Shown: positions 1,509 to 62,358, counted from the first letter of the stretch. The stretch: 64,000 bases of DNA from Candidatus Saccharimonadia bacterium (GCA_041743505.1 JBGTMQ010000021.1:64521-128520), one strand, 5' to 3'. The notes: generated by a model from the letters alone, not told the origin. Made by a program: numbers and translations.

Positions 1509-1584
1509 TGGTGCGCCCGGAGGGATTTGAACCCCCGACACCCAGTACCGGAAACTGGTGCTCTATCCCCTGAGCTACGGGCGC
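1509..1584 (-). tRNA. tRNA-Arg (anticodon CCG), CCA encoded
   Basis: Reverse complement folds as a 76-nt cloverleaf: acceptor GCGCCCG/CGGGCGC, D-arm GCTC/GAGC, anticodon stem CCAGT/ACTGG with loop TTCCGGT (anticodon CCG), T-arm GGGGG-TTCAAAT-CCCTC, 3' ACCA. Confidence 0.85.
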
Positions 1585-46859: not shown

Positions 46860-48107
46860 TTAATCGTGGCGGAGGGCCTCGATGGGATTGACACGAACGG
46901 CCCGCCAAGCCGGGTAGGCGACCACGAGCAGGGCGACCACGATAACCAATCCGAGAGTGCTAAAGACAAGCCACCAGGGCAGGCTAAAGATATTGACGGG
47001 ATCGGTGACGCCACGTGAGCTGGCCAGCCGGGTGAGACCGAGGTTAATGGCGACGCCCAGCAGCCAAGATGAGGCAATGCCGCAGATACCGCCCAAGACG
47101 GCCAGGCCAACGGCTTCGGCAACAAACAAGCGGCGGATGTCTTTGCGCCGGGCGCCGAGGGAGATCATAAGAGCGATTTCACGGGTGCGTTCGAGCAGAG
47201 AGATGGTGAGGGTGTTGAACATGCCTAAAACGGCGATGAGCATGCCAATGCCACCGAAGCCGGCCAGGATAAAGTTGAAGAAGACGAAAACCTGCTTGAT
47301 CTGGTTAAGGGTATCGATGGGCGATGTGGTGTTAAAGCCGAGCACCTCAATGCGCTTGCGAACGGCCGCGACATTGGACTCAGAGTCGACCATGACTTTG
47401 GCTTGCGCGTAATTGGTGACGCCGGCAGACGCGAAAAAGGTGTCGGGCATAAAGACCTCGGACCCGCTGCCGGTATCAACCACACCTTTAATAACGCCGT
47501 TGGCTAGGAGATGCCGTTTGGCGCCGTCGCCGGCGGGGGCCAAGATATCTAGGCGCAGGACTTTGCCGGTGGCTTTGGCGGGATCGCTAATGCCAATGAG
47601 CCTAGTGAGCGACGAGTTTACGAGTATCTCGCCGGGGCCGAGCTTGAGGCTGCCTTTGGTGGTGAGACGCAGCGAGCTGAGATTTAAGTAGGTTGAATCG
47701 GCGCCATAGACTACAGCATCGGTACTCGATTGGCCGAGCGTGACCTTGCTAGCCAGTGTGTAGCTTTTGGCAACGTCGGTGACATGAGGGATCTGGCGAA
47801 TTTTGGAGATATTCGGGGCATCGAGCGGGACAATATTGGAGCTGGGAGGCGTGACATCGACGGCGGTGACTGATTTGGATCCGATAACCTGCTTGAAAAC
47901 AAGATTTTGCAGGCCAAGACTAAATGAGAGTAAAAATGTGATGGAGCCAATGCCAATGAGAACGCCGCCGGCCGTGAGGAAGGTGCGGAGTTTGCGGGCA
48001 ATAAGGTTACGGTAGGCCATGTACAGGATTATTTTGGGACGAAGATGGCGCGTGCCGGCGTTGGCCTCGAATTCGACGTAGGCGGTCGACTTGACTGATT
48101 TAGCCAT
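46860..48107 (-). CDS. FtsX/MacB-type ABC permease
   Basis: N-terminal TM, ~250-aa extracytoplasmic domain, C-terminal 3-TM FtsX bundle. 8-nt overlap with the ATPase gene. Confidence 0.8.
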   Translation of the reverse strand: MAKSVKSTAYVEFEANAGTRHLRPKIILYMAYRNLIARKLRTFLTAGGVLIGIGSITFLLSFSLGLQNLVFKQVIGSKSVTAVDVTPPSSNIVPLDAPNISKIRQIPHVTDVAKSYTLASKVTLGQSSTDAVVYGADSTYLNLSSLRLTTKGSLKLGPGEILVNSSLTRLIGISDPAKATGKVLRLDILAPAGDGAKRHLLANGVIKGVVDTGSGSEVFMPDTFFASAGVTNYAQAKVMVDSESNVAAVRKRIEVLGFNTTSPIDTLNQIKQVFVFFNFILAGFGGIGMLIAVLGMFNTLTISLLERTREIALMISLGARRKDIRRLFVAEAVGLAVLGGICGIASSWLLGVAINLGLTRLASSRGVTDPVNIFSLPWWLVFSTLGLVIVVALLVVAYPAWRAVRVNPIEALRHD

Positions 48108-48831
48108 GTTTCACCCCTATTTTCCGGCGTCTGGCGGCATTTTGCTCGGTAGTGTCGGTGAGGAGGCCGTCTTTAATTTCTAGTTGTTGGGTACTAAAGC
48201 TCAGATAATCGAGGTTGTGGGTCACGAGAATGACGGTTTTACCCTGCTCTTTGACGCTCCGTTCGAGCAGGCCCATGATGAGCTCGCCGTTTCGGGAATC
48301 TAGATTGCCGGTGGGCTCATCGGCCACGATAACACGGGGGCTGGCAATAAGTGCGCGGGCCATGGAGACACGCTGTTGCTGCCCGCCCGAAAGTTGCGTT
48401 GGGTTGTGGGCCGAAATATTGCCGAGGCCGACCTGCTCGAGCCGCAACTGGGCGAGACTAGTGGCCTGCTGCCGGTCGTAGCCCGCTAGATAGAGCGGGA
48501 AGGAAACATTTTCGATGACATTGAGGCTACTAACCCAGTAGTTGGTTTGGTTGACCATGCCGAGGGTGAGCTGGCGGAACCGCGCCCGATCGTCCGGAGT
48601 GAGCTGGTAAAGGTCCTGTCCGAGCATGTCCACGGTTCCGCTAGTGGGAGGTTCGAGGCCGACAATGGTGTTGAGCAAGGTCGATTTACCTGAGCCGGAC
48701 GGTCCGTAGATGATGGCAAAAGCGCCCTCTTTGATTTCAAAGTTTACGTCGATGAGCGCCTTGACCGTCTCGGTGGCCAGGTCGAATTGTTTATGTAGAT
48801 TGGTGATTTTGAGAAGGGTTTTACTGCTCAT
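48100..48831 (-). CDS. ABC transporter ATP-binding protein (FtsE/MacB-like)
   Basis: Walker A GPSGSGKST, signature LSGGQQQRV, Walker B VIVADEPTGNLD. 4-nt overlap with the giant gene stop. Confidence 0.85.
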   Translation of the reverse strand: MSSKTLLKITNLHKQFDLATETVKALIDVNFEIKEGAFAIIYGPSGSGKSTLLNTIVGLEPPTSGTVDMLGQDLYQLTPDDRARFRQLTLGMVNQTNYWVSSLNVIENVSFPLYLAGYDRQQATSLAQLRLEQVGLGNISAHNPTQLSGGQQQRVSMARALIASPRVIVADEPTGNLDSRNGELIMGLLERSVKEQGKTVILVTHNLDYLSFSTQQLEIKDGLLTDTTEQNAARRRKIGVKHG

Positions 48832-51800
48832 TTGAGGAATCCAAATATGTTTGACAGGGCATTGAAGATGATGCTGAGAACGCTTTCGGTGCCCCGCCCG
48901 ATGATGGTGGACTGATCGGTGGAGCTACCTTCATTGCCGGCGCGGTCGCGGGAGATGGCCTTGAGATGGAAAACGGTGGAAGTGGGTAAATCGGAAATAA
49001 TAACCACGTGGTCGTAGGTGTAATTTTGGTCTTCGGCGGTTTTGGTGCTGTAGCTGTCGCCGGACGAGCCTTGATTGAAGGCGACCTGGCTGGCGGCTGG
49101 CTCGTCGGTCTTCCAGCTAACCACCATCTGGCCGCGGGCGTCTGAGCCAGTGCCCTTGATGCTGGATTCTATGGTGACTCGCGAGACTTTGGGTGGGCGG
49201 GTGTCGAGGGCGGTGCGGAAGACTTGTTGATCGGAAACGGCCAGATTGCCGCTGCCGTCACGCGAGGAGGCGGTGAGAATGTATTCGCTATTATCGACGA
49301 GGTCGCTAATGGTGATCTGGTGGTCGGTGGTGAGCTTGGATTCGCTGACCTCCAACTGTTTTTGGCCGCGGGGCCCGTACTGGAGGCCGGAGGTGGCGGG
49401 CACATTGGTGGTCCAGGAGACAAGCTGAGTGTTCGTGGGGGCTCCGGCGACCGGCTGGAAGCGCAGGTCCGAGATACGGGGCCGGGCCGGGGTGGTAAAG
49501 GTGAAGATACTGGAATTGTACTCATTGCCATCGGCATCGAAGGTGTTGATTTTGTAGAAGTATTTAGTCCCGTCATCGAGGTTAGTGAGTTGGGCGGTAT
49601 AGGAAGATTCGGCGGTGGAGGTGTTGAGAATCTGGACGCCGCCAAAACTGTCGGTCTTGCCAAAGTAAATCTTGGTGCTGGTGGCGTCTTTGGAGGTGAA
49701 ATGAATGGAAGTACTGGTAAGCCCGACGGACGGATTGGTGACTTCTTTGATGAGGGGGGCCGGCGCCGTGGTGAAGCTAAACTCATCGGAGCTGCCCAGG
49801 TTGCCGTCTTCGTCGATCCATTTGGCTTTGGCAAAGTAGAGTGTACCGGGAGACAAGTTGGTGAGATTGATGGTGTGAGCTGTCACCTGGTTGGAATTGG
49901 CGACTTCATCGCTGGAGTAATTGCCGCTGGAGGTACCAAGCGCGATGCGCGAGTCACTGGCGCGGTTGGTGACCCAGCTAATGGTGGCGCGGCGGGTGGT
50001 GACATTTTGCACGGCCACCTGGTTGAGCAGGCCGGCCGGGCTGGTGAAGCGGCCGGTAGGCAGCTTGGAGACTGAGTTAGAGGCTACGCCACAGTTATTG
50101 GCTGAGTCACAGGCTTTGATTTTGTAGTAGTACGTGATTTGACTGAGGCCGCTGTCGACCAGGCTGGTGGCGCTGGTGGTGGCGACGACGCTAAAGTTGA
50201 CGTTGTCGGTGGAGCGGAAGACGCGGTAGGTGGCCACGCCGGCGCCCGGATTGGTGGGTGGTTCCCAGGTGAGAGCCAGGCGCCAGTTGGCGGTGGATTT
50301 GATGGAGGCGTCGACGACGTCCGGGTTGAGCGGCATACCCGGGGCGGAGGTATTGGCCGTGAAGATGACACTAGCTGCAGTGGCGTAGTTAATGTTGCCG
50401 GCCTCATCTTTGGCTACAACATAGAACGTGTTATCGCCGGGCTGGGTGGCGTAGGGTCCGGCAGTAATGTTGGTAACGCCGGCAGCGGTGAAGGTGCAGT
50501 TGGAGACGGTGGGTGTGGCATTGACGGTGTAGCAGTAGGTGAGGTTGGCGGCTTGCCCGGCAAATGAGGCCGGAGCCACCCAGTTGAAGCTAAATGAGTT
50601 GGTGGTGTTGGTAGTGGGGATGGCGGCGAGGTTTTGAGGTGAGCTCGGTGAACTGGTATTAATTTTAAGCGCAGTGGTGACATAGACGGGTGAGACATTA
50701 CCGGCCAGATCCCAGGTGCGGAAGTAAATGGTGTTGTTGCCCTCAATGAGGTTGGCAAAGTCCGGGGTATTTTGGGTGGTATAGGACCCATCGTTGGCGA
50801 GCAGGTCGGTGGCGTCCTGAGTGCCGAAGTGGTTGTCCCCATACCAGGGGCTGGAGGCGCCAATGCGATACTGGAGGCCGGCCACACCAGAGTTGGCGTC
50901 GCTGGCGGCATCACTGCCACTGGTTTGCCAGGTGAGCGTGGCGGTTTTGGTGGCAATGAAGTTTGATGGGGCCGTGATGAAGGCCGGATTGGTGGGCGTG
51001 GTGTTATCGAAGCGGAACTGGAAGTTGGTGCTGGTGCTTGAGACAGCATTGCCGGCCCGGTCGATGGCGGTGACGTAGAGGTAGTAGGGATTGTTTGATG
51101 ACGTGAGCGCACTGGCAAGGTAGCCGCTGGTAGCCAGGTCCACGCTGTCGCCCGGCACAATGAACTGGCACGGCGTACCGGTGGTGGCCAATGGCGAGTT
51201 ACCAAGGATACCTTTGGTGCTGGTCGGGTCGGAGCCGGCTGTTTGACCGAGGTACAGGCAGTAACCGTAGATGCCAGCGCCAGCGTCGGAGCCGGCGGTC
51301 CAGCTGAAGTACGGCGAGCCGCCGTTGGTCCAGTCATTTGAGGCCACGGTGGGCCCACCGGCCGACTTGTACATGACGGCCGCGGTGGCGTTGGTTTCGG
51401 GTGGGGTTATGTCAGTGATGCCGGAAACGGTGACTGAGTCCAAGGTAACCCGTTGTGTGCCGTCACCTTGGGCGATAGCCTGCCATTTGATACCACCACC
51501 CATGACTACGGGGAACGTGGCGATGTTGCTGTTGATGACTGCGGCGGAGTTGGTTTGGGTGGTGTCGGCCGATACAACCCAGGCACTGCCGCTCCAGTAT
51601 TTCCACGTAGTGCCATTATCGGTCGAGAGGCGGTAGTTGATACTGCCTCCACCCAGTGTGGAACTGTCGCTAAAGGCGCTCCAGCTGGCAACGCCAGTGC
51701 CGAGGACGGCGCTGAGCGGGCTGACGGCGAGCGGAGCATTGGAGTAGGGTTTGGTGGTAAAGCTACTGCGGGCAGAGTCGCTGATGCGAACTTCGTCGAG

Positions 51801-54800
51801 TGAGCCGGCAAAGTAGCCCTGAGCCACGCCGGCCTGGGCGGCGCCAAAGGTGGTGCCGAGCAGAAGCGGCTGGCTGGTATTGGGCAGTGACAGCGAGGCG
51901 GAAGTGGAAGCATTGAGCGTGCCATCAATGTATAACTTCATGGTACCGCCGTCATAAGTGGCCGCCAGGTGATGCCAGCTGGTATTCTGGCCGACGGTGG
52001 CCGACTGCAAGAAGCCGTTGTTGCCATAGGACCAGATGGCGGCGTCGACGTTGGCTGAGTCGCCCAGGCCGGCGTAGAGTTTGCCGCGATAGGTGGTCAT
52101 GGCGCGGACTGTTTCGGTAGCATTGACGGCCCAGCTGCCATTCATGGCGTCGCCGCCGATTTGGGTCCAGGCGCCATTGTCGTATTGCCAGACCTCGCCA
52201 TCGCTGGCGGTGTTGGCCAGTCCCGCGTAGAGTCCGCCGTTGTAAACCGACAAGCCCTTGGCTTGCTCGTATTGGCCGTCGATCCAGCTACCGCCTATGG
52301 CGTCGCCGCCGATTTGCGACCAGGCCGTGCCATTCCACTCCCAGATTTCGGCGTCTGCGGTGGTGTTACCGAGGCCGGCGTAGAGTTTGCCATTGTAGGC
52401 TTGAAGAGATTCTACCTGCTCGTAGACGGTATTCCAGCTGCTGTTTAGGCCATCGCCGCCGATCTTGGTCCAGGTGGCTCCACCCCATCGCCAGACTTCG
52501 GCGTCGGTGGCGCTGGCGCCCAGCCCAACGTGGAGCTGTCCGCCGAAGACGGTCATGGAGCTGACGCGCTCAAAGCCGGCCGCCCAGCCGCTGTTTAGGC
52601 TGTCGCCGCCGATCTTGGTCCAGGCCGTGCCGTTCCAACGCCAGACTTCGGCGTCGCCCGCAGTATTACCGAGGCCGGCGTAGAGATTGCCACCAAAGGT
52701 AGCGAGCGAATAGACTTCCTCGTATCCGGCGGCCCAGCCGCTGTTTAGGCTATCGCCGCCAATTTGGGTCCAGGCAGTGCCGTTGTAGCGCCAGACTTCG
52801 GCGTCCCCGGCGGTAGTGCCCAGGCCGACATACAAATTCCCACCATAGCTGGTCATGCTGAGAACGTTTTCGAAGGTATTAACCGCCCAGCTGGAGTTAA
52901 TCCCCTGCCCGCCCACAAGCGCCCATGATGTGCCGTCAAAGCGCCAGACTTGGGCGTTGCCGGCCACGGTATTACCGAGACCGGCGTACAGATAGTCGCC
53001 CGAGACGGTCATACTTTCAACATCTTGAAGATTGAAAAAGCCCCAGCTTTTATTGACGTAGCCGCCGCCCATCCGCGTCCAGGACGTACCGTTGTAGGTC
53101 CAGATTTCGGCGTTGTTGCCGGCCGCGGTTAGGCCGGCGTAGAGGGTGCTGCCCGTATAAAGCAGAGACTGCACAATAGTATGCGTGTTGGTGAAGCCGC
53201 TATTTAACCCATCGCCGCCAATTTGGGTCCAAGCCGTGCCGTTGTAGCGCCAGACTTCATTGTCGCCGGCAGTATTGCCTAGGCCGGCGTAAACGTTGGT
53301 GCCATCGTCGGTTAAGGCGTAAACCCCTTCATAGTTGGTGTTCCAGCTACTATTTAAGCCGTCGCCGCCAATTTGGGTCCAAGCCGTGCCGTTGTAACGC
53401 CAGACTTCGGCGTCGGTGGTGCTGAGGCCGATGCCGGCGTAGAGATCACTGCCGAGCCAGCGCAGACTCTGGACGGTCTCGTAGGTCACATCTGCCCAGC
53501 TGGAGTTGACGGCATCACCGCCGATTTTGGTCCAGGCCGGTGTGGTGCCACAGTTGCCGCAGCGCCAGACCTCGGCGTCCCCGGCGGTAAGCCCTAGGCC
53601 GGCGTAAATGTTGGTGCCGTCTGTCGCCAGAGACGGGACGATTTCGTAGTTGGTGGTCCAGCCGCTAGCCAGGCTGTCGCCGCCAACTTTGGTCCAGGCA
53701 CTGCCATTCCAGCGCCAGACTTCGGCGTCGTTGGCCGAGCTGCCGATGCCGGCGTACAAGTTAGAGCCCATCACGACCATACTGGTGACTTCCTCATAGG
53801 TGTTGACGACCCAGCTGCTGTTAATGCCGTCGCCGCCGATCTTGGTCCAGCTGGAACAGCCAGTGGAGGTGTCACAGCTCCAGACTTCGGCATCCCCGGC
53901 ACTGGAACCCAGCCCGGCGTAAAGCGTGTTGCCATTGGCGGCTAGTGACAGGACATTTTCGAACGTTTGGTCGGACCAGCTGGAGTTCTTGCCGTCGCCG
54001 CCGATTTGGGTCCAGGTGGACCCATCCCATTTCCAGACCTCAGCATCAGCCACGGCATTGCCTAACGCGGCATAGACGTTGCCGCCGATAGCAACCTGGG
54101 CGTTGACAGATAACTTACCGTTTAGGTCCCAGCTACTCTTGACGTCGTTGCCGGCTTGTTGAGTCCAGTTGGTGGCTGCGGAATTAGCCAGCTCATACGT
54201 GACCTTGCCGGTTTCCTGGTCGTAATACAGCTTGTAGGAGCCCTTGTCGATGACACCCTGCTGATGGTCGTGGCTGGTGTCCGAGAACGTGCCCGCGAAT
54301 TTGGTCCAGGCCTCCAGGGTATTGTCCTGGTCCAATGAGAGTGAGGCAGAATCTGTGGCCGATACTTGATCGCTGGTTCCGTTAAGCGTGAGGCCGTTGT
54401 TTAAGTTACCGAGGCCGAACGTGCCGCCGGTGACTGCACCCGTGTTGCTATTGGTTGAGGAATCGGCGGCGCTACCACCGCCGGCTTCATCCAGGTGGTA
54501 GAGGGCTTCGGTGGCGGCATCAGGGGTGTAGTTTTGAGCTTTATGACGGACGCTGGTACCACTAACCTCGAGGGCGCTGTCGATGGAGAAATTGCTGGGT
54601 GTAGTGAAGTCCCAAGTATGGGATGAGTCAGCAAAGATAGCGTGGTGCAGGCCGCTCACAAAGAAAATACCAATGATGTAGGCTGTGAGGGCGGCGTAAT
54701 GCACCCGATGATGGTGACGATGGTTATGCCAGCGATCATACCAGTCAAACTGACGACGGAGGTGCTGATGCGGACGGGCGGCAAGATGGTGGTGGGCTGT

Positions 54801-54998
54801 GCGAAGGTGCGTTGCGGCCTGACCGGCGACGGACATGACGGCGGCCAAGCCACCTACTAGACGCGGCCGCACTGTTGACATGGCACGGCTAGCCCATCGC
54901 TGGACATAGGCTACACCGCGCCTTACCAGCACTGACCTAGCGGTTGCGCTACGGCGTCGTGCGGCTTTGTTTGCTCCTCCTAGTTTCGACCGGGCCAT
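48828..54998 (-). CDS. Giant (2056 aa) signal-anchored surface protein: LamG/ConA-like, ~15-17 propeller-like tandem repeats, second LamG, multiple Fn3/Ig-like domains
   Basis: Basic cytoplasmic N-terminus then a TM. LamG_3-like blocks (W.HLAATYDG..MKLYIDG...SLDEVRISD). ~50-aa repeats (LYAGLGNTAGDAEVWRYNGTAWTQIGGDGLNSSW...). C-terminal Fn3-like modules. Confidence 0.8.
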   Translation of the reverse strand: MARSKLGGANKAARRRSATARSVLVRRGVAYVQRWASRAMSTVRPRLVGGLAAVMSVAGQAATHLRTAHHHLAARPHQHLRRQFDWYDRWHNHRHHHRVHYAALTAYIIGIFFVSGLHHAIFADSSHTWDFTTPSNFSIDSALEVSGTSVRHKAQNYTPDAATEALYHLDEAGGGSAADSSTNSNTGAVTGGTFGLGNLNNGLTLNGTSDQVSATDSASLSLDQDNTLEAWTKFAGTFSDTSHDHQQGVIDKGSYKLYYDQETGKVTYELANSAATNWTQQAGNDVKSSWDLNGKLSVNAQVAIGGNVYAALGNAVADAEVWKWDGSTWTQIGGDGKNSSWSDQTFENVLSLAANGNTLYAGLGSSAGDAEVWSCDTSTGCSSWTKIGGDGINSSWVVNTYEEVTSMVVMGSNLYAGIGSSANDAEVWRWNGSAWTKVGGDSLASGWTTNYEIVPSLATDGTNIYAGLGLTAGDAEVWRCGNCGTTPAWTKIGGDAVNSSWADVTYETVQSLRWLGSDLYAGIGLSTTDAEVWRYNGTAWTQIGGDGLNSSWNTNYEGVYALTDDGTNVYAGLGNTAGDNEVWRYNGTAWTQIGGDGLNSGFTNTHTIVQSLLYTGSTLYAGLTAAGNNAEIWTYNGTSWTRMGGGYVNKSWGFFNLQDVESMTVSGDYLYAGLGNTVAGNAQVWRFDGTSWALVGGQGINSSWAVNTFENVLSMTSYGGNLYVGLGTTAGDAEVWRYNGTAWTQIGGDSLNSGWAAGYEEVYSLATFGGNLYAGLGNTAGDAEVWRWNGTAWTKIGGDSLNSGWAAGFERVSSMTVFGGQLHVGLGASATDAEVWRWGGATWTKIGGDGLNSSWNTVYEQVESLQAYNGKLYAGLGNTTADAEIWEWNGTAWSQIGGDAIGGSWIDGQYEQAKGLSVYNGGLYAGLANTASDGEVWQYDNGAWTQIGGDAMNGSWAVNATETVRAMTTYRGKLYAGLGDSANVDAAIWSYGNNGFLQSATVGQNTSWHHLAATYDGGTMKLYIDGTLNASTSASLSLPNTSQPLLLGTTFGAAQAGVAQGYFAGSLDEVRISDSARSSFTTKPYSNAPLAVSPLSAVLGTGVASWSAFSDSSTLGGGSINYRLSTDNGTTWKYWSGSAWVVSADTTQTNSAAVINSNIATFPVVMGGGIKWQAIAQGDGTQRVTLDSVTVSGITDITPPETNATAAVMYKSAGGPTVASNDWTNGGSPYFSWTAGSDAGAGIYGYCLYLGQTAGSDPTSTKGILGNSPLATTGTPCQFIVPGDSVDLATSGYLASALTSSNNPYYLYVTAIDRAGNAVSSTSTNFQFRFDNTTPTNPAFITAPSNFIATKTATLTWQTSGSDAASDANSGVAGLQYRIGASSPWYGDNHFGTQDATDLLANDGSYTTQNTPDFANLIEGNNTIYFRTWDLAGNVSPVYVTTALKINTSSPSSPQNLAAIPTTNTTNSFSFNWVAPASFAGQAANLTYCYTVNATPTVSNCTFTAAGVTNITAGPYATQPGDNTFYVVAKDEAGNINYATAASVIFTANTSAPGMPLNPDVVDASIKSTANWRLALTWEPPTNPGAGVATYRVFRSTDNVNFSVVATTSATSLVDSGLSQITYYYKIKACDSANNCGVASNSVSKLPTGRFTSPAGLLNQVAVQNVTTRRATISWVTNRASDSRIALGTSSGNYSSDEVANSNQVTAHTINLTNLSPGTLYFAKAKWIDEDGNLGSSDEFSFTTAPAPLIKEVTNPSVGLTSTSIHFTSKDATSTKIYFGKTDSFGGVQILNTSTAESSYTAQLTNLDDGTKYFYKINTFDADGNEYNSSIFTFTTPARPRISDLRFQPVAGAPTNTQLVSWTTNVPATSGLQYGPRGQKQLEVSESKLTTDHQITISDLVDNSEYILTASSRDGSGNLAVSDQQVFRTALDTRPPKVSRVTIESSIKGTGSDARGQMVVSWKTDEPAASQVAFNQGSSGDSYSTKTAEDQNYTYDHVVIISDLPTSTVFHLKAISRDRAGNEGSSTDQSTIIGRGTESVLSIIFNALSNIFGFLK
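51950..54150 (-). repeat. Nucleotide-level tandem repeats (~150-156 bp units) encoding the propeller-like blades
   Basis: Recurring near-identical strings, e.g. gtcgccgccgatttgggtccaagccgtgccgttgtagcgccagacttc at ~53211 and ~53361. Confidence 0.6.
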
Positions 54999-56942: not shown

Positions 56943-57518
56943 CTATATTCCAGGGACGTTTTTGACCACTACCTTATTGGCAAGTTGCCCGACGTACAGT
57001 GAGCTCTCGGTGTGATGCTGCTGTCCGTGAATGCCGCGGCATTGGCTTTCTTCGTGCTGGAGCCGAAGCATACAGGTATCGACTTCAGGGTTGTCGACGC
57101 CGAGCGGAATCCATCGCATCAAGCACCAGGGACCACTGGTTGGCGCCCAGTCAGGTAGCTGGGGTCGTTTATTATCCCACTGCTTGTGTTGCTCTGGCGT
57201 CCAGGCCGGAGTAGCAGCGATGAACAAGCGCATATTACCTTCCCAGTAATACTGTTCGTTTGGCTCAATCAGTACCAGGTCACCTGAGTCTAGATGGTGC
57301 CCGGCGTCCCCGATGACCAGTCGGCCGCTTCCCCCCAGCACAAAGGCCATCTCGGTGCAGGCCTGGTTATAGACCACTCCGTCGGCCGGGTAGCGGCCAT
57401 AGATTTGGGCAACTGCTCCATTGACGAGGTCATAGTCCATTGGATATTCATGGACAACGCAACTGTCACTGTTGGCATGCTCGATTGTCTCGGTGATGCG
57501 CACTAATCTCATTGTCAA
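56943..57518 (-). CDS. Cupin-domain protein
   Basis: G..LVIGD..H.L..GDLVLIEPNE cupin motif pattern. Confidence 0.55.
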   Translation of the reverse strand: MTMRLVRITETIEHANSDSCVVHEYPMDYDLVNGAVAQIYGRYPADGVVYNQACTEMAFVLGGSGRLVIGDAGHHLDSGDLVLIEPNEQYYWEGNMRLFIAATPAWTPEQHKQWDNKRPQLPDWAPTSGPWCLMRWIPLGVDNPEVDTCMLRLQHEESQCRGIHGQQHHTESSLYVGQLANKVVVKNVPGI

Positions 57519-57670
57519 TCCCGTCTGGAAGGGGCTGGTTCGTCAACCTGCGATTATTTTGCAAGCGTTACTTCATAGAAGCAACCATAACTAAAAAGAG
57601 AGGGCAACAGCCGGCAGCTATTTGGCCCATCCTAAAACTTTAAAAATTGATTAAAATCTTGGGGTGAGCC

Positions 57671-57697
57671 CACCCGCGCCGGATGGCGGGGTGGGAG
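57671..57697 (-). terminator. Hairpin CCCACCCCGC-catccggc-GCGGGTGGG 3' of gene 57737..58078
   Basis: GC-rich stem followed by a T-rich tract on the minus strand. Confidence 0.45.
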
Positions 57698-57736
57698 TTT
57701 GGTGAGCCTGGAAGGCGTGAGGCAGAGACGGGGGCT

Positions 57737-58078
57737 TTAACTGCCGGACGAGTCCTTGACTTGCCGACTCAGGGCGGCCCGGAATTCTTCCTGAGTGCAG
57801 ATCCCGTACCGAACCATGCCCACTTCCTGGTTCCACCAGCCGTCAATTTTGTACTCGAAGACATAGGCTAGCGCCTGGCGGAAGAGATCCTCCTGCTCCT
57901 TAGCAAACCCAGGATAGACACCTGACTTGACCACTGGGTAGCCGGCTTGCCGAAGAGCGGCCTCGATGCAGCCCATCTGCCCAAGGTCGCCAGTGAAGGT
58001 GAAGTAGGCGCGGTCGTCGTGGGTATTGGTTAGAGCCGTAACAGCGCCGGGGGCAACAGTGAAGCTTAACTCGGTCAT
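57737..58078 (-). CDS. Hypothetical protein (113 aa)
   Basis: No family assigned. Confidence 0.4.
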   Translation of the reverse strand: MTELSFTVAPGAVTALTNTHDDRAYFTFTGDLGQMGCIEAALRQAGYPVVKSGVYPGFAKEQEDLFRQALAYVFEYKIDGWWNQEVGMVRYGICTQEEFRAALSRQVKDSSGS

Positions 58079-58197
58079 GTCGTACTCCCTGATTGAGATT
58101 AAACTCGGGCAGCTTGGGTCGGGTTTATGACTCAGTGTTAGGTATTAAATACCGTTTCTTTTAATACCATATATTATCTGTTTGGGCAATACCGGAC

Positions 58198-58566
58198 TTA
58201 GTCGCCGAAGTCGAACATGTCTCCGAGGAAACCTTCGCGCTTGCGTTTTTTGGGGTGTTCGCCATAGCGGTCGCCGGAGTATTGGTCACCACGACGGTCG
58301 CCGTGATCGCTATCGCGGCGGGTATCCCGGTAGTCATCGTGGCGGTCGTTGCTGAGGTCGTGATCATAGGGCTGCGGCTGCGGAGCTTGGCGATCTTGAT
58401 GGCCGGTTTCGTAGGAGGCGGCGCGGTCGATGACTTTGTCGAGTTCGCCGCGGTCAAGCCAGACACCGCGGCACTTGGGGCAATAATCGATTTCGATGCC
58501 TTGGCGGTCGGCTATTACGAGCGGCGTGTTATCTACTGGACATACCATGCGGGTTCTCCTGAACAT
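58198..58566 (-). CDS. Zinc-ribbon (zf-TFIIB-like) protein with D/H/R-rich C-terminal tail
   Basis: CPVDNTPL...IDYCPKCRGVWLDRGELDKV zinc ribbon. Low-complexity RD/DH tail. Confidence 0.5.
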   Translation of the reverse strand: MFRRTRMVCPVDNTPLVIADRQGIEIDYCPKCRGVWLDRGELDKVIDRAASYETGHQDRQAPQPQPYDHDLSNDRHDDYRDTRRDSDHGDRRGDQYSGDRYGEHPKKRKREGFLGDMFDFGD

Positions 58567-58607
58567 TACTTCATTAGTTTATCAGCAATGGCTGAAATTA
58601 AGCTGGA

Positions 58608-60119
58608 TTATAGACCTGAAAAGTAATCGGTTTTGATGCGGCTGTGTTTGATGCCGAGTTGGCGGAGCATGGTGCGGTAGGATTCGACCATGACGTTGGG
58701 GCCGGAGAGGAAGAACATGACTTCCTGATAATGAGGTACTTGGTTTTTGATAATGTCAGCCGTGAGAAAACCTGTCTCCCCTGTCCAGTCTTTGGGTACT
58801 TCGCGGGCCGTGAGGAGATAGTGGGTGGTTAGGCCGATGGTTTTGGCCTCGTCCAACAAGGGCCGGTAGACGAAGTCGCTGGGATTATTGGCAGAGTAAA
58901 ACATGGTTATGTCGCGGTGTTGATTGGTGTCGAGGAGGTGCTTGATCATGCTGCGGAAGGGGGTGATGCCGATGCCACCGGCGATGAACACGAGCTTTTG
59001 GTTGGGTTCGGCGGGCAAAATGAAGTTGCCGGCGAGTTGTCCGGCCATGACGGTATGGCCGGGTTTGAGGTCGTGCAGGGCGGTTTTGAAGCTGCTGGAC
59101 GGGGTGTAGAACCGGGTGGTCAGGTGTAATTCTGGTTCGGTCGGCGATGAGGAGATGGAAAAGGTGCGGCGGTTACCGCGGATATCGGTGCGGCCGTGCG
59201 GGACCAACACATCCATGTATTGGCCGGGCTGAAACTGAGCCGGGCGGTCCTTGGTGAAGCGGAATTCGGTGATGTCGGGTGAGAGCTGGACTTGTTCTTT
59301 GAGCTTTAGGCGCAGACGGTACTTGGGGCTCATGAAGTAGGCAAAGACGTTACCAATGAGGAGCGCAACTTCGGGAGTGCTATAGATGGGGCCGATGTGG
59401 ACTTGGGAGCCAAATATGACACCAACGAGCGCGCCATAGATGAGGATGTCGCGGTTGCGGGGCGGCATGGTGGCGGGTTCGGTTAGCATAATGGTGCCAA
59501 GGAAGATGAGCGGCCAGGATAGGTAGGCCGTGGCTAAAACGTCGGTGACGGAGCGGTCTGCGGCCACCAGGAGCATCGTGGCCAGCGTGGCCAGTACAAA
59601 GGCGGTGACGAGCTGAAAACGGCGGACTTTGCGGGCTACCAATAGACCCAGCGCGATGACGAACGGCAAGAGGATGGGCGTGGCAACCCACCAGGTGGCG
59701 GCGTAGAGCCCGGTGAGGCCGACCGCGGCGGCGCCGAAAGCGGCCGGATTGAAGATGTGCTTGCGGCCTGTAGCCAGGAGGTACTTGGAGGCCATGGCAA
59801 TGAGGCCGGCGAGCGCGATCATGGCCAGGTCACGGACATTGGCGGGCGGCGCCAGGAGGAAGAATAAAATGATTGCAGTAATGGAAGCCGACTCAGCGCC
59901 GGTGGGAGCGTCGAATAGGGTGCTAAATAACCAGTTGGCGGCGTAGCAGACCAAAAACAGCGTAACAAGCGAAACCAAAAGCGCAGGGCCGGATAGGCTG
60001 AGCGCGCCCATGAAGGCAAATATGATGGCGACGGCAGCTAGCGCCATGAGGCCGTACAGCATCAAGCGGTACATAGTGATGCCGTTCAGGAACCGATCAA
60101 TTTGCCGAATCACTACCAT
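58608..60119 (-). CDS. Membrane oxidoreductase: N-terminal NqrB/RnfD-like domain fused to C-terminal FNR-like FAD/NAD(P)-binding domain
   Basis: HIFNPAA and IMLTEPATMP (RnfD/NqrB FMATDPVT-like) in the TM domain. RTFSIS (RxYS-like FAD motif) and GGIGITP NAD(P) motif in the C-terminal domain. Confidence 0.55.
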   Translation of the reverse strand: MVVIRQIDRFLNGITMYRLMLYGLMALAAVAIIFAFMGALSLSGPALLVSLVTLFLVCYAANWLFSTLFDAPTGAESASITAIILFFLLAPPANVRDLAMIALAGLIAMASKYLLATGRKHIFNPAAFGAAAVGLTGLYAATWWVATPILLPFVIALGLLVARKVRRFQLVTAFVLATLATMLLVAADRSVTDVLATAYLSWPLIFLGTIMLTEPATMPPRNRDILIYGALVGVIFGSQVHIGPIYSTPEVALLIGNVFAYFMSPKYRLRLKLKEQVQLSPDITEFRFTKDRPAQFQPGQYMDVLVPHGRTDIRGNRRTFSISSSPTEPELHLTTRFYTPSSSFKTALHDLKPGHTVMAGQLAGNFILPAEPNQKLVFIAGGIGITPFRSMIKHLLDTNQHRDITMFYSANNPSDFVYRPLLDEAKTIGLTTHYLLTAREVPKDWTGETGFLTADIIKNQVPHYQEVMFFLSGPNVMVESYRTMLRQLGIKHSRIKTDYFSGL

Positions 60120-60134
60120 ATAGTCACCTCTTGG

Positions 60135-61022
60135 TTATGTGGCTGAAAAAAACGTGGCGGGGAATCCCGGCGACTGCTGCAGTGAGCCGCCGCTATGTAC
60201 GAGTGCAGACTCAAACTTATAATACCCGTCTAAGACGGACTGATCCACAAAAAACAACGCTGTAGCGAGGGCATCAGCTATGAGGGCGGTGGGGGCGGTG
60301 ACCCAAACCGCCTGGAGGTGGCGGGGAGAGGTGAGGGTGTGGGGATTTAGGATATGGTGGTAGTCGCCCCAGGCGCGGCGGTTGCCGGCCGAGGCACAGA
60401 GGCTGGTGTTGGACAGTTCGGCTACGCCGATGACTTGGGTTGGGTCGGCCGGGTGCTCGAGGCCGACCCGAAGTGGCGGGCCGTCCAGGCGACGGTAGCG
60501 CATGTCACCGCCGGCGTCGACGCAGTAGGACGTGAGGCCGTGATCTTCGAGCAGTTCGCTGACGAGGTCGACCAGGTAACCTTTGCCGGCGGCGCCGAGG
60601 TCGAGCAAGGCGGGTTGGTGGAGGGTGAGATGCGGGAAGTCGTAGGTTAGGGTTTCGTCCCAGGCCGGCGGGGACGTGAGCGGTTTGGGCGTGAGCGAGT
60701 AGGCTGCGTCGTAGCCGGCGTCGGACAGGGTCTGGCCGATGAGCGGCGTGACGGCCCCGTTGGTGATGCGGTACAAATCTTGATAGATGTCGAATAGGGG
60801 CTGAGCGTCAGCCGGTAATTCGTAGCGGCCGGCCTGGTGGGACAGGCGCGTGATGAGCGAATCGGGGCGGAACCGCGAATAGGCCAGGTCGAATTGTTCG
60901 ACGCGGGCGGCTATAGCGTGCTTGATTTTGGCGGACATGGGGGCTCGGGATACGGGCTCATAGACCTCCACGGACCAGGCGGTGCCGATGGCTTCGAACC
61001 GTAACTCCAAAGCCGCCCCCAA
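60135..61022 (-). CDS. apbE: FAD:protein FMN transferase (ApbE/Ftp family)
   Basis: GAAGKGYLVD and HILNPHTLTSP blocks typical of ApbE. Confidence 0.75.
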   Translation of the reverse strand: MGAALELRFEAIGTAWSVEVYEPVSRAPMSAKIKHAIAARVEQFDLAYSRFRPDSLITRLSHQAGRYELPADAQPLFDIYQDLYRITNGAVTPLIGQTLSDAGYDAAYSLTPKPLTSPPAWDETLTYDFPHLTLHQPALLDLGAAGKGYLVDLVSELLEDHGLTSYCVDAGGDMRYRRLDGPPLRVGLEHPADPTQVIGVAELSNTSLCASAGNRRAWGDYHHILNPHTLTSPRHLQAVWVTAPTALIADALATALFFVDQSVLDGYYKFESALVHSGGSLQQSPGFPATFFSAT

Positions 61023-61027
61023 GTGCT

Positions 61028-61525
61028 TTAGCCTTTGGCTTTGGACTTAATTTGCTCCAGGGCCGAGTTAAAGCCTTTGGAGGTCAGAGATGAGCCGGAC
61101 ACCCTTGAGATACTGACGTCATCAATGCTCTTGCCAAGAATTTGGGCTTTGTAGCCATTAATAAATTGACCCTGGTAATTGCGGCCGGTCGGATTGGCGG
61201 ATCCAGAAACCGCTGTAGTGTCGGCGACGGCGCCGTCTTTGATGGTGACCGAAATATCGATTGATTCGCGTCCGCCCGGTGATTGGTATGTGCCGGTGGC
61301 GGAGTATGTACCATCTTTATAACCCGACGAGGGATTGGACGAGTTGGATGTCGGGGACGGCGTGACGCTAGCTGAAATACTTGGCGTAGGTGAGCTGGTA
61401 GCCTGGTTGGAGGTATCAGTTTTCTGGCTCGACATCATAACGCCAATGGCGATGGCCGCCACTATGACCAGCAAACCGACAATGGCGATAATCTTCTTGT
61501 TATTATCCTGTGGTTGTTCGTTCAT
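61028..61525 (-). CDS. Membrane-anchored FMN-binding domain protein (NqrC/RnfG/PplA-like flavinylation substrate)
   Basis: N-terminal TM, S/T-rich linker, FMN_bind-like C-terminus with a flavinylation-type motif (SRVSGSSLTS). Confidence 0.55.
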   Translation of the reverse strand: MNEQPQDNNKKIIAIVGLLVIVAAIAIGVMMSSQKTDTSNQATSSPTPSISASVTPSPTSNSSNPSSGYKDGTYSATGTYQSPGGRESIDISVTIKDGAVADTTAVSGSANPTGRNYQGQFINGYKAQILGKSIDDVSISRVSGSSLTSKGFNSALEQIKSKAKG

Positions 61526-61650
61526 GCACCCTCCTATCAGCGAGTATTCTCGTTGTTAGCACAATTTTATTAATGTATCCTGAGAGTGAGCTGTAATCTG
61601 GGTTTGATTACACCATATATGACTGTACAAGCTATGTTTGTGGTTTTGGA

Positions 61651-62358
61651 TTAATGCCGACCCGTGAATACCCGTTCCAGCGTCCCGTCTGCCACTAGTC
61701 TATGCGGGTCGCCGTGGGCGACTACCCGGCCTTTGTCCAGAATATAGCCGCGGTCGGCGATTTCGAGAAGAGATTTTAAATTGTGCTCTACTACCATGAC
61801 GGCGGTACCCTGTTGTTGGTTGATGTCTTTGACAAAAGCAAACACCTCTTTGACAACCTTGGGAGCCAGACCTAATGACGGCTCGTCGAGGAGGAGGACC
61901 TTGGGGTTGGTCATGAGACCGCGGGCGATGGCGAGCATCTGCTGCTGTCCACCCGATAACGTACCGGAGCGTTCCCGGCGCTTGGTGGCGAGCACCGGGA
62001 ACATCTCAAATAGCTCTTTGATCCGCTGCCGCCGCTGTTGAGGGCTATCAATGATGAAGCCGCCGATTTCCAGATTCTCCTCTACAGTGAGGTCTGTAAA
62101 GACCCGGCGGCCTTGGGGTACAAAGGCGATACCACGGCGCACTACCTCGTGCGACACCGGTGTAAATTCCCGGCCTTCCCACAACACCTGGCCAGATGAT
62201 ACTTTGGCTAAGCCAAAAATGGCCTTTAGGACAGTTGATTTGCCCGCCCCATTGGGCCCCATGAGGGCGACAATTTCGCCCTTGCTTAGCTCCACATCCA
62301 CTTTGTCTAGAGCCGTTACGCCGCCGTACTGGACTGATAATTTCTTGGTCTCAAGCAC
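61651..62358 (-). CDS. livF: Branched-chain amino acid ABC transporter ATP-binding protein (LivF-type)
   Basis: Walker A GPNGAGKST, signature LSGGQQQML, Walker B LLLDEPSLGL. Confidence 0.8.
   Translation of the reverse strand: MLETKKLSVQYGGVTALDKVDVELSKGEIVALMGPNGAGKSTVLKAIFGLAKVSSGQVLWEGREFTPVSHEVVRRGIAFVPQGRRVFTDLTVEENLEIGGFIIDSPQQRRQRIKELFEMFPVLATKRRERSGTLSGGQQQMLAIARGLMTNPKVLLLDEPSLGLAPKVVKEVFAFVKDINQQQGTAVMVVEHNLKSLLEIADRGYILDKGRVVAHGDPHRLVADGTLERVFTGRH

What the first reader, a model, noticed from the sequence alone, without database searches (positions are those of the whole stretch)
58608..61525. Minimal NQR/RNF-like flavinylation module: FMN-binding lipoprotein-like protein, ApbE flavin transferase, and an NqrB/RnfD-FNR fusion
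Three co-directional genes encode (i) a TM-anchored, S/T-rich protein with an FMN_bind domain and an ApbE-target-like motif, (ii) ApbE, and (iii) a polytopic protein carrying RnfD/NqrB signatures (HIFNPAA; ...MLTEPATMP) fused to an FNR-type NAD(P)H/FAD domain. This resembles extracytosolic flavin-based electron-transfer systems that depend on post-translational flavinylation. It also appears to collapse the NqrB and NqrF functions into one polypeptide.
Basis: partly seen in the sequence, partly recalled or inferred. Interest (0 to 1): 0.6.

Follow-up and report, generated by a model that had tools for sequence, protein, structure and literature searches.

The report
Known NQR/RNF-like flavinylated electron-export module
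The three genes are a real, intact copy of the already published "NQR/RNF-like" system, which probably passes electrons from NAD(P)H inside the cell to a flavin-carrying protein outside it; this copy is an ordinary member, with two unexplained details.

Summary
Three minus-strand ORFs lie at 61525-61028, 61022-60135 and 60119-58608.

- **Partner (165 aa):** a signal-anchored, S/T/P-rich FMN_bind protein.
- **ApbE (295 aa):** Pfam E=7e-43.
- **Fusion (503 aa):** an RnfD/NqrB-fold membrane domain joined to an FNR-type FAD/NAD(P)H module. PF03116 scores above its cutoff, and the top 15 Foldseek PDB hits are all RnfD or NqrB.

Méheust et al. 2021 (eLife) defined exactly this architecture as the "NQR/RNF-like system", found mainly in Actinobacteria and CPR. 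Huang et al. 2024 modelled the complex. I found no experimental study.

- The partner has no Cys, so it is not a lipoprotein here.
- The RnfD-like domain lacks the whole flavinylated loop.
- The NqrF 2Fe-2S domain is absent.

Two details I did not find discussed:
- The flavinylation motif is non-canonical, S-R-V-S-G-S-S instead of D-x-x-[S/T]-G-A-[S/T]. It is conserved in at least 100 of 120 relatives.
- The cluster's ApbE has no export signal in all 30 complete ApbE ORFs examined (window plus 29 related loci), although its substrate is exported.

The physiological electron acceptor is unknown. Interest is low to moderate.

The parts
61028..61525 (-). Gene 1: NqrC/RnfG-like FMN_bind partner, 165 aa. 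It has an N-terminal signal anchor, an S/T/P-rich linker and an FMN-binding domain. There is a GGAGGG ribosome-binding site upstream of the ATG.
61433..61492 (-). Hydrophobic signal anchor of the partner, residues ~12-31, preceded by KK. Predicted N-in/C-out.
   Evidence: Hydropathy; N-termini of homologues. The topology is inferred.
61322..61432 (-). Low-complexity S/T/P linker, residues 32-68, 68% S/T/P.
61088..61108 (-). Predicted flavinylation motif S140-R-V-S-G-S-S146. Ser146 aligns with the FMN-bearing Thr of canonical SGAT motifs. It is non-canonical at the Asp and Ala positions.
   Evidence: canonical motif from PMC12052999. Flavinylation itself has not been shown.
60135..61022 (-). 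Gene 2: ApbE-family FAD:protein FMN transferase, 295 aa. DAGGD, HHI(L)NP and ADALAT motifs are present. There is no signal peptide, lipobox or TM segment.
59325..60119 (-). Gene 3, N-terminal RnfD/NqrB-fold membrane domain, residues 1-265. It lacks the flavinylated periplasmic loop.
59739..59762 (-). KHIFNPAA signature, residues 120-127. It aligns to GQNPFNPAM of RnfD/RsxD.
59460..59489 (-). MLTEPATMPP signature, residues 211-220. It aligns to ILTDPVTAS of RsxD and IATDPVTSP of RnfD.
58611..59318 (-). Gene 3, C-terminal FNR-type FAD/NAD(P)H module, residues 268-503. It has RRTFS (317-321) and GGIGITP (381-387). There is no Fe-S domain; the whole protein has one Cys.
58198..58566 (-). Adjacent Zn-ribbon (PF13453) gene, 41 nt downstream and co-directional. 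Probably not part of the system: it is absent from all 37 related loci.

Best explanation
This locus is a member of the published NQR/RNF-like flavinylation-associated transmembrane electron-transfer system. It belongs to the 'type 2' branch shared by Saccharibacteria-like CPR and Actinomycetota.

Proposed path, with the status of each step:
1. NAD(P)H is oxidised by FAD in the cytoplasmic FNR module of the 503-aa protein. The domain identity is shown; the activity is inferred.
2. Electrons cross the membrane through the RnfD/NqrB-fold domain, probably through a non-covalently bound flavin. This is inferred by analogy to NqrB. No cofactor site was tested here.
3. Electrons reach an FMN that ApbE has attached by a phosphoester bond to Ser146 of the signal-anchored partner. 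The motif and the adjacent ApbE are shown; the modification is inferred.
4. The RnfD-like domain has lost its own flavinylated loop. The partner's tethered FMN is therefore thought to dock into the vacated pocket, as in the AlphaFold-multimer model of Huang et al. 2024, and then pass electrons to an unidentified extracytosolic acceptor.

Flow is unidirectional and outward. The second (return) half of the NQR/RNF circuit is not encoded.
For: - **Architecture.** It meets the published operational definition: a PF03116 + PF00175 fusion in a cluster with ApbE and FMN_bind (definition).
- **Fold.** The top 15 PDB Foldseek hits of the N-terminal model are RnfD or NqrB chains. The next hits, urea and Rh transporters, have E>0.07. 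The family profile hits RnfD 8ahx_D at E=7.6e-6.
- **FNR module.** The closest solved relatives are NqrF FAD/NADH domains, E down to 2e-21 with the profile. The RxFS and GGIGITP motifs are present.
- **Loss of the covalent-FMN loop.** The 82 residues of E. coli RsxD (143-224) that hold DGISQAT/T187 have no counterpart in this family. The fusion has no [ST]G[AS][ST] motif. This agrees with PMC10979944.
- **Partner.** Family-level FMN_bind assignment, and alignment of its SGSS to the SGAT of the solved domain 8p2a.
- **ApbE.** E=7e-43, with the catalytic His and Mg-site motifs retained.
- **Synteny.** Of 37 full-length fusion loci from different species, 30 have ApbE immediately upstream and 30 have the FMN_bind gene upstream of that. 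They span CPR, Chloroflexota, Actinomycetota and Alphaproteobacteria.
- **Export of the partner.** Signal anchors in CPR and lipoboxes in Actinomycetota.
Against: - No experiment exists on any member, as far as the searchable literature shows. The direction of flow, the cofactor in the membrane domain and the acceptor are all inferred.
- The flavinylation motif lacks the Asp and Ala of the canonical D-x-x-[S/T]-G-A-[S/T].
- The cluster's ApbE has no export signal while its presumed substrate is extracytosolic. One step of the maturation model is therefore unexplained.
- I could not run a multimer prediction or inspect model coordinates, so docking of the partner and flavin-to-flavin distances are taken from the literature.
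- Neighbouring genes give no consistent clue to the acceptor.
Confidence: 0.65

Rival explanations
1. Same complex, with a specific role: an assimilatory metal reductase. The exported FMN would reduce extracellular Fe(III), or Cu(II), for uptake or homeostasis rather than serving energy or redox balance.
For: - Méheust et al. report VIT1 iron transporters in six such clusters.
- Among related loci, an NRAMP-like transporter sits directly downstream in L003.
- A CopA-type ATPase lies nearby in L008.
- An OmpR-type two-component system adjoins 11 of 37 loci. Its best NCBIfam subfamily is 'heavy metal sensor/regulator', but it scores below the cutoff.
Against: - The associations are sporadic and mixed. 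The 'P-type ATPase' cluster combines Cu-type and Ca-type pumps.
- The window itself has no metal transporter next to the operon. Its neighbours are Liv-type ABC genes and a Zn-ribbon protein.
Confidence: 0.25
2. A minimal redox-driven ion pump. The NqrB/RnfD-like domain, which is the ion-translocating subunit type in NQR/RNF, would couple outward electron transfer to Na+ or H+ export and so energise the membrane of an organism with little respiratory machinery.
For: - The RnfD/NqrB fold and its most conserved intramembrane motifs (FNPAA, TEP/TDP) are retained.
- The family is large and conserved: 369 representatives at 50% identity with E<=1e-30.
Against: - Four of the six NQR subunits are missing, including NqrD/E.
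- No ion-site residues were tested here.
- Both published analyses treat it as a simple unidirectional conduit.
Confidence: 0.1
3. Inward or cytoplasm-facing function. The leaderless ApbE would indicate that flavinylation and the relevant chemistry occur in the cytoplasm, for example a membrane-tethered flavin reductase. Alternatively, electrons would flow from an external donor to NAD(P)+.
For: - ApbE lacks any export signal in the window and in the 29 related loci with a complete ApbE ORF.
- Cytosolic ApbEs are known to serve cytosolic targets (PMC12052999).
- Some CPR genomes carry the fusion with no adjacent partner or ApbE: L012, L013, L018, L019.
Against: - The partner has a KK-flanked signal anchor in CPR and lipoprotein signals in Actinomycetota, so its FMN domain is predicted to be outside.
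- The fusion has no flavinylation motif.
- Reducing NAD(P)+ from an external flavin would be uphill without the missing energy-coupling subunits.
Confidence: 0.07
4. Chance adjacency of unrelated genes, or decayed remnants of an NQR/RNF operon.
For: None beyond the small size of the cluster.
Against: - All three ORFs are intact, with catalytic and cofactor motifs.
- The gene order is conserved in about 30 species across four phyla.
- The AF2 models are confident: pLDDT 88, pTM 0.82-0.86.
Confidence: 0.02

Closest known systems
NQR/RNF-like flavinylation-associated system (Méheust et al. 2021, eLife, PMC8238504; Ktedonobacter racemifer complex modelled in Huang et al. 2024, PMC10979944)
   Same: - Identical architecture: an NqrB/RnfD-like membrane domain fused to a PF00175 NAD-binding module, an NqrC/RnfG-like FMN_bind partner and ApbE.
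- The same phyla (CPR, Actinobacteria, Chloroflexota).
- The same loss of the NqrB/RnfD flavinylated Thr.
   Different: - The modelled Ktedonobacter-type clusters, represented here by the related Ktedonospora locus L009, belong to my 'type 1': a canonical V-D-I-V-[S/T]-G-A-T motif and an ApbE of about 247 aa.
- The window belongs to 'type 2': an S-R-V-S-G-S-S motif and an ApbE of about 290 aa.
- I did not find the motif variant or the leaderless ApbE discussed in either paper's text.
Na+-NQR (NqrA-F) of Vibrio cholerae
   Same: - NqrB fold (Foldseek prob 1.00, TMq ~0.62).
- NqrF FAD/NADH module (profile E ~1e-18 to 2e-21).
- NqrC-type ApbE-flavinylated FMN_bind domain.
   Different: - No NqrA, NqrD or NqrE.
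- No 2Fe-2S domain.
- No covalent FMN on the B-like domain.
- No evident quinone-reducing return path; electron flow is presumably one-way and outward.
RNF complex (RnfD/RnfG; Azotobacter vinelandii 8ahx/8rbq, Acetobacterium woodii 9eri, E. coli RsxD/G)
   Same: - The best sequence and fold match of the membrane domain is RnfD.
- The FNPAA and T(D/E)P motifs align.
   Different: - The 82-residue RsxD segment carrying T187 is deleted.
- No RnfA, B, C or E.
- The electron donor is an FNR module, not RnfC/RnfB.
Listeria-type extracellular electron transfer (Ndh2, EetA/B, PplA, FmnB)
   Same: Works alike: a cytosolic NADH dehydrogenase feeds an ApbE(FmnB)-flavinylated, membrane-tethered FMN_bind protein on the surface of a monoderm cell. 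The partner gives a weak hit to NCBIfam PplA.
   Different: - An unrelated membrane component, with no quinone step implied.
- A single FMN_bind domain.
- FmnB is an exported lipoprotein, whereas this ApbE is leaderless.
Ferric-reductase/NOX-type fusions (membrane domain + FAD/NAD(P)H module)
   Same: The same design logic: a C-terminal cytosolic FNR module fused to a membrane electron conduit. There is a weak PF08030 hit.
   Different: The membrane domain is RnfD/NqrB-fold and presumably flavin-based, not a di-haem cytochrome b domain.

Membership tests
NQR/RNF-like system (Méheust 2021 operational definition) | [quoted passage not shown] | tested here: met
   PF03116 scores 29.7 bits against a cutoff of 27.7. 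The family profile hits RnfD at E=7.6e-6. The top 15 Foldseek hits are RnfD or NqrB.
NQR/RNF-like system (Méheust 2021 operational definition) | C-terminal cytosolic NqrF-like NAD-binding domain (PF00175) on the same polypeptide | tested here: met
   PF00175 E=4.5e-18 at residues 378-482. The closest PDB relatives are NqrF FAD/NADH domains.
NQR/RNF-like system (Méheust 2021 operational definition) | Lies in a flavinylation-associated gene cluster (ApbE and/or FMN_bind within five genes) | tested here: met
   ApbE and the FMN_bind gene are immediately upstream in the same orientation. The arrangement is conserved in about 30 loci.
NQR/RNF-like system (Méheust 2021 operational definition) | [quoted passage not shown] | tested here: inconclusive
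   The partner has a KK-flanked hydrophobic N-terminal anchor, and orthologues have lipoboxes. SignalP was not available, and ApbE itself has no signal.
NQR/RNF-like system (Huang 2024 structural description) | The NqrB/RnfD-like subunit lacks the conserved flavinylated Thr | tested here: met
   The fusion has no [ST]G[AS][ST] motif. The RsxD segment 143-224 containing T187 has no counterpart.
NQR/RNF-like system (Huang 2024 structural description) | The NqrC/RnfG-like partner binds the NqrB/RnfD-like domain, with its FMN near the vacated flavin pocket | not testable with these tools
   Only single-chain prediction was available, and model coordinates could not be inspected.
Bona fide Na+-NQR or RNF complex | Full subunit set (NqrA-F or RnfA-E,G) encoded together | tested here: not met
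   The only neighbours are Liv-type ABC genes upstream and a Zn-ribbon gene downstream. No other NQR/RNF subunit family appears in 37 related loci.
Bona fide Na+-NQR or RNF complex | Covalent FMN on the B/D subunit, and a 2Fe-2S ferredoxin domain on NqrF | tested here: not met
   The flavinylated loop is deleted. The 503-aa fusion has a single Cys.
ApbE FAD:protein FMN transferase | ApbE fold/domain with catalytic His and Mg2+/FAD-site motifs | tested here: met
   PF02424 E=7e-43. DAGGD (169), HHILNP (222) and ADALAT (249) are present. It aligns to solved ApbEs 4xgw and 3pnd.
ApbE FAD:protein FMN transferase | Typical extracytosolic localisation (lipoprotein or signal peptide) | tested here: not met
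   The first possible start codon (TTG 61022) lies 5 nt after the upstream stop. Residue 9 aligns to residue 20 of signal-truncated E. coli ApbE. The same holds in the 29 related loci with a complete ApbE ORF.
Canonical ApbE substrate motif D-x-x-[S/T]-G-A-[S/T] (PMC12052999) | Asp at position 1 and Ala at position 6, with Ser/Thr acceptor at position 7 | tested here: not met
   The window has S-R-V-S-G-S-S. The acceptor Ser and the Gly are kept, while Asp is replaced by Ser and Ala by Ser. Among 120 relatives, 5 have Asp and 1 has Ala. The relaxed [S/T]G[A/S][S/T] form is met.
FNR-type flavoprotein reductase | R-x-[YF]-[ST] FAD motif and G-x-G-x-x-P NAD(P)H motif | tested here: met
   RRTFS at 317-321 and GGIGITP at 381-387. 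PF00970 and PF00175 both hit.

The most novel reading that the evidence does not exclude
The 'type 2' clusters (the window, other Saccharibacteria-like CPR and Actinomycetota) may be a distinct enzyme-substrate pair. A leaderless ApbE of about 290 aa would recognise a non-canonical, highly conserved S-[R/K]-V-[S/A]-G-S-S motif. It would flavinylate the partner in the cytoplasm, before or during export, rather than outside the cell as in all characterised extracytosolic ApbE systems. One Arthrobacter-type orthologue has an RR and three have RK in a Tat-like position of the lipoprotein signal. This would fit export of a pre-flavinylated folded domain in that lineage, but the window's KK anchor does not fit it.
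Probability: 0.2. Interest if true: 0.6.

Novelty: already known. Interest (0 to 1): 0.3.

Why it matters
The class is one of five flavinylation-associated transmembrane electron-transfer systems that have been predicted but never characterised.

In CPR bacteria, which are generally regarded as having little or no respiratory chain (background knowledge, not tested here), it could be a main route for disposing of NAD(P)H electrons or for reducing extracellular iron. The window's organism is only inferred to be CPR.

This locus adds no new concept. It does document two points:
- A whole branch uses a motif that breaks the 'strictly conserved Asp / Ala' rule used to predict ApbE targets and to design flavin-tags.
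- The dedicated ApbE lacks an export signal, which the current maturation model does not explain.

Both points can be tested cheaply by co-expression.

Tried and rejected
- **Promoter/terminator scan of 57500-62000.** Counts were at shuffle level, so the scan says nothing about operon boundaries.
- **Rfam on the whole window.** Only one tRNA was found. There is no FMN riboswitch or other element ahead of the operon.
- **Structure job with locus-derived sequences.** I worked around this by placing the window's N-terminal domain first, above full-length database proteins.
- **Foldseek against AFDB50.** The library was not installed.
- **Méheust supplementary table.** I looked for the SignalP calls of ApbE in NQR/RNF-like clusters, but that sheet was truncated in the stored copy.
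- **Organism name of the window.** The exact proteins are in NCBI/Logan without names, and the contigs come only from Logan runs SRR28170470/71. The taxonomy rests on the nearest named relatives (Saccharimonadales, Patescibacteria) and is not established.
- **P0272.** This 75%-identical partner protein is listed with the same longest-contig length. It is not inside the window and has no encoding contig on record.
- **Neighbour-gene clustering for an acceptor clue.** Only sporadic two-component systems, ABC ATPases, mixed P-type ATPases and one NRAMP turned up. I rejected this as a basis for a firm functional call.
- **A second SGAT in E. coli RsxD (residue 276).** It lies inside a TM helix next to the TDP motif. 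I do not take it as the flavinylation site; DGISQAT/T187 is (the T187 assignment follows Backiel et al. 2008, as cited in PMC8238504).
- **NJ trees of the fusion.** The membrane domain separates type 1 from type 2. The window's FNR half groups with type 1. There are no support values, so this is not a claim of mosaicism.
Full report
**1. What is there**

The window carries three tightly packed minus-strand ORFs at exactly the reported coordinates: 61525-61028 (165 aa), 61022-60135 (295 aa) and 60119-58608 (503 aa).

Pfam results on these proteins:
- ApbE: E=7e-43.
- NQR2_RnfD_RnfE: 29.7 bits, gathering score 27.7, matching the C-terminal part of the profile.
- NAD_binding_1: E=4.5e-18.
- FAD_binding_6: 21.3 bits, cutoff 21.1.
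- FMN_bind: only 19.1 bits, cutoff 22.

NCBIfam places the C-terminal half among FNR-type reductases, including NqrF. All three proteins are intact.

The first gene has a GGAGGG ribosome-binding site. The ApbE ORF can start no earlier than a TTG located 5 nt after the preceding stop codon.

**2. Testing each domain call beyond the single-sequence hits**

*Membrane domain.*
- A profile of 22 N-terminal domains from related loci finds one PDB family only: RnfD of Azotobacter vinelandii (8ahx_D, E=7.6e-6).
- An AlphaFold2 model of residues 1-265 (pLDDT 87.7, pTM 0.86) was searched against the PDB with Foldseek.
- The first 15 matches are all RnfD or NqrB chains (prob 1.00, TMq 0.59-0.71). Urea and Rh transporters follow at E>0.07.
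- The fold assignment is therefore solid.

*FNR module.*
- The closest solved relatives are the FAD/NADH domains of NqrF.
- RRTFS and GGIGITP motifs are present.
- The whole protein has one Cys, so NqrF's 2Fe-2S domain is not represented.

*Partner protein.*
- 28 of 34 syntenic homologues hit PF04205, best E=7.9e-12.
- Their profile hits the solved FMN-binding domain 8p2a_A at E=3e-19. The SGAT of 8p2a_A aligns with the window's SGSS.

*ApbE.*
- It retains DAGGD, the catalytic His (HHILNP) and ADALAT.
- It aligns with solved ApbEs from about residue 9 onwards.

**3. This is a published class**

Méheust et al. 2021 (PMC8238504) define an "NQR/RNF-like system" as an NqrB/RnfD (PF03116) + NqrF (PF00175) fusion in a flavinylation gene cluster. 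[quoted passage not shown] Huang et al. 2024 (PMC10979944) modelled the Ktedonobacter racemifer complex and made three points:
- The NqrC/RnfG-like partner binds the NqrB/RnfD-like domain directly.
- The flavinylated Thr of NqrB/RnfD is not conserved.
- The partner's covalent FMN may sample the vacated flavin pocket.

A literature search for later or experimental work returned only these two papers.

**4. The lost flavinylation site**

I aligned E. coli RsxD, fetched, to the family profile.
- RsxD residues 19-142 and 225-333 align, including FNPAM with FNPAA and LTDPVT with LTEPLT.
- The 82 residues between them (143-224) have no counterpart.
- That segment contains DGISQAT with T187. T187 is the RnfD flavinylation position reported by Backiel et al. 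2008, as cited in PMC8238504.
- The same gap appears against A. vinelandii RnfD.
- The fusion has no [ST]G[AS][ST] motif.

The loop is deleted, not just mutated.

**5. Relatives and context**

Named relatives of the fusion are Candidatus Saccharimonadales and Patescibacteria. The exact protein occurs on two Logan metagenome contigs with the same neighbours. The window is therefore probably, but not provably, from a Saccharibacteria-like CPR genome.

A scan of species-representative genomes returned full-length fusions from these groups:
- many CPR lineages;
- Ktedonospora and Anaerolineales;
- Actinomycetota (Microbacterium, Arthrobacter group, Nocardioides);
- alphaproteobacterial contigs, including a 1.1-Mb Mesorhizobium contig.

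In 30 of 37 full-length loci an ApbE gene ends just where the fusion begins, and an FMN_bind gene precedes it. A few CPR loci carry the fusion alone.

The membrane domain on its own retrieves 369 cluster representatives at E<=1e-30. Most of the top 150 are about 480-510 aa, which is the fusion architecture; about 30 shorter ones are probably contig-end fragments.

**6. Two subtypes**

| | Type 1 | Type 2 |
|---|---|---|
| Number of loci | 14 | 16, plus the window |
| Taxa | CPR, Chloroflexota, Alphaproteobacteria | Some Saccharibacteria, all Actinomycetota |
| Partner motif | V-D-I-[V/I]-[S/T]-G-A-T (canonical) | S-[R/K]-V-[S/A]-G-S-S-L-T-S |
| ApbE length | ~247 aa | ~290 aa |

(Table.)

- Among the 120 closest database relatives of the window's partner, at least 100 read x-x-x-[S/A]-G-S-S. 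Five have Asp at position 1 and one has Ala at position 6.
- The 2025 ApbE review gives the motif as D-x-x-[S/T]-G-A-[S/T] with a "strictly conserved aspartate". It also notes that D-to-A had minor effects, A-to-V lowered flavinylation, and Ser is a poorer acceptor than Thr.
- The variant is therefore plausibly functional, but it lies outside the rule normally used to call targets.
- In a simple NJ tree the membrane domain separates the two types. The subtypes are most simply two clades of the whole system.

**7. An unexplained point: ApbE has no export signal**

- In the window and in the 29 related loci with a complete ApbE ORF, the ORF begins within about 12 residues of the conserved core (often fewer) and directly abuts the upstream gene. 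The 30th, L030, is cut off by the contig end.
- The partner has a KK/KKK-flanked signal anchor in CPR and classic lipoboxes (LAGC, AAGC) in Actinomycetota.
- According to the review, ApbEs are typically exported lipoproteins. The known cytosolic ApbEs serve cytosolic substrates, and a cytosolic Salmonella ApbE did not complement.

Three explanations remain open:
- Flavinylation precedes export. The motif can be recognised as a short tag.
- A second, exported ApbE encoded elsewhere does the job.
- The leaderless enzyme has another target.

I cannot decide between these with a 64-kb window.

**8. Mechanism, and how much of it is shown**

*Shown:* the domain identities, the folds, the cofactor-binding motifs, the deletion of the RnfD loop, the conserved three-gene synteny and the export signals on the partner.

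*Inferred:*
- NAD(P)H oxidation by the FNR module.
- A non-covalent flavin relay in the membrane domain.
- ApbE-dependent FMN on Ser146.
- Docking of that FMN on the RnfD-like domain.
- Outward delivery of electrons to an acceptor.

The acceptor is unknown. Metal-related neighbours occur in some relatives: an NRAMP-like gene in L003, a CopA-type ATPase in L008, and two-component systems with weak heavy-metal-type similarity in 11 of 37 loci. VIT1 is reported in the literature. These associations are inconsistent and are absent from the window.

**9. Verdict**

This is a correct observation and a correct interpretation of an already described, still uncharacterised system. The locus is an ordinary member of its Saccharibacteria/Actinomycetota branch. 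What remains of interest is the non-canonical, strongly conserved flavinylation motif and the leaderless ApbE. Both are easy to test experimentally.

Noticed in passing
window 60135-61022 (-); related loci L003-L044, ApbE ORFs ending at ~6000: The cluster's ApbE has no signal peptide, lipobox or TM segment in the window and in the 29 related loci with a complete ApbE ORF (L030 is cut off by the contig end). Its presumed substrate is exported (signal anchor or lipoprotein signal). I did not find this discussed in the two papers that describe the system.
   Followed up: partly
window 61088-61108 (-); P0271-P0390: The flavinylation motif of the whole 'type 2' branch is S-[R/K]-V-[S/A]-G-S-S. At least 100 of 120 relatives have it; 5 have the canonical Asp and 1 the canonical Ala. 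It co-occurs with a longer ApbE (~290 aa). Type-1 clusters pair the canonical VDIVSGAT with a ~247-aa ApbE.
   Followed up: partly
L035, L028, L029, L082 (FMN_bind lipoprotein N-termini): Arthrobacter-group partners have LRRTLF, FRKSVF, LRKTLY or VRKSVF just before the hydrophobic core and lipobox. This resembles a Tat motif (one RR, three RK). It could allow export of a pre-flavinylated folded domain. The window's KK anchor does not resemble it.
   Followed up: no
L012, L013, L018, L019 (CPR); L010; L052: Some CPR genomes carry the fusion with no adjacent ApbE or FMN_bind gene. L010 has the partner directly abutting the fusion with no ApbE between. L052 has the order fusion, then a 303-aa partner with IARIGQATETT, then ApbE.
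   Followed up: no
L014, L016 (1.1-Mb Mesorhizobium contig), L017, L020: Complete type-1 clusters occur on alphaproteobacterial contigs. The distribution is therefore wider than 'primarily Actinobacteria and CPR'.
   Followed up: no
L016, L017, L020, L022, L031-L036, L003, L008: An OmpR-type histidine kinase/response regulator pair adjoins the cluster in 11 of 37 loci. In L022 it is directly upstream on the same strand. The best NCBIfam subfamily is heavy-metal sensor/regulator, below cutoff. An NRAMP-like gene lies directly downstream in L003, a CopA-type ATPase in L008 and a Ca-type ATPase in L033.
   Followed up: partly
window 48828-54998 (-), 46860-48831 (-): A 2056-aa protein has an N-terminal hydrophobic segment and about 20 tandem ~45-residue repeats (GGDxxNSxW...YAGLG...DAEVW). 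It also has a Laminin_G_3 domain and fn3/purple-acid-phosphatase-N-like domains. A MacB-like ABC ATPase and FtsX-type permease pair follows it.
   Followed up: partly
window 58198-58566 (-): A Zn-ribbon (PF13453) protein with a D/R/H-rich C-terminal tail lies 41 nt downstream of the fusion and is co-directional. It is present in the same-organism contigs L001/L002 but in none of the 37 related loci.
   Followed up: partly
P0272 (not in window): A 75%-identical paralogue or orthologue of the partner protein is listed with the same longest-contig length (136,915) as the window's proteins. This hints at a second cluster on the same contig outside the window. No encoding contig was on record.
   Followed up: partly
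window fusion, residues 268-503 versus 1-265 (NJ trees): The window's membrane domain groups with type-2 loci, but its FNR half groups with type-1 locus L003. The trees have no support values, so this is only a hint of domain-level mosaicism.
   Followed up: no
window 1509-1584 (-): A single tRNA-Arg(CCG) is the only Rfam/ARAGORN hit in the 64-kb window.
   Followed up: yes
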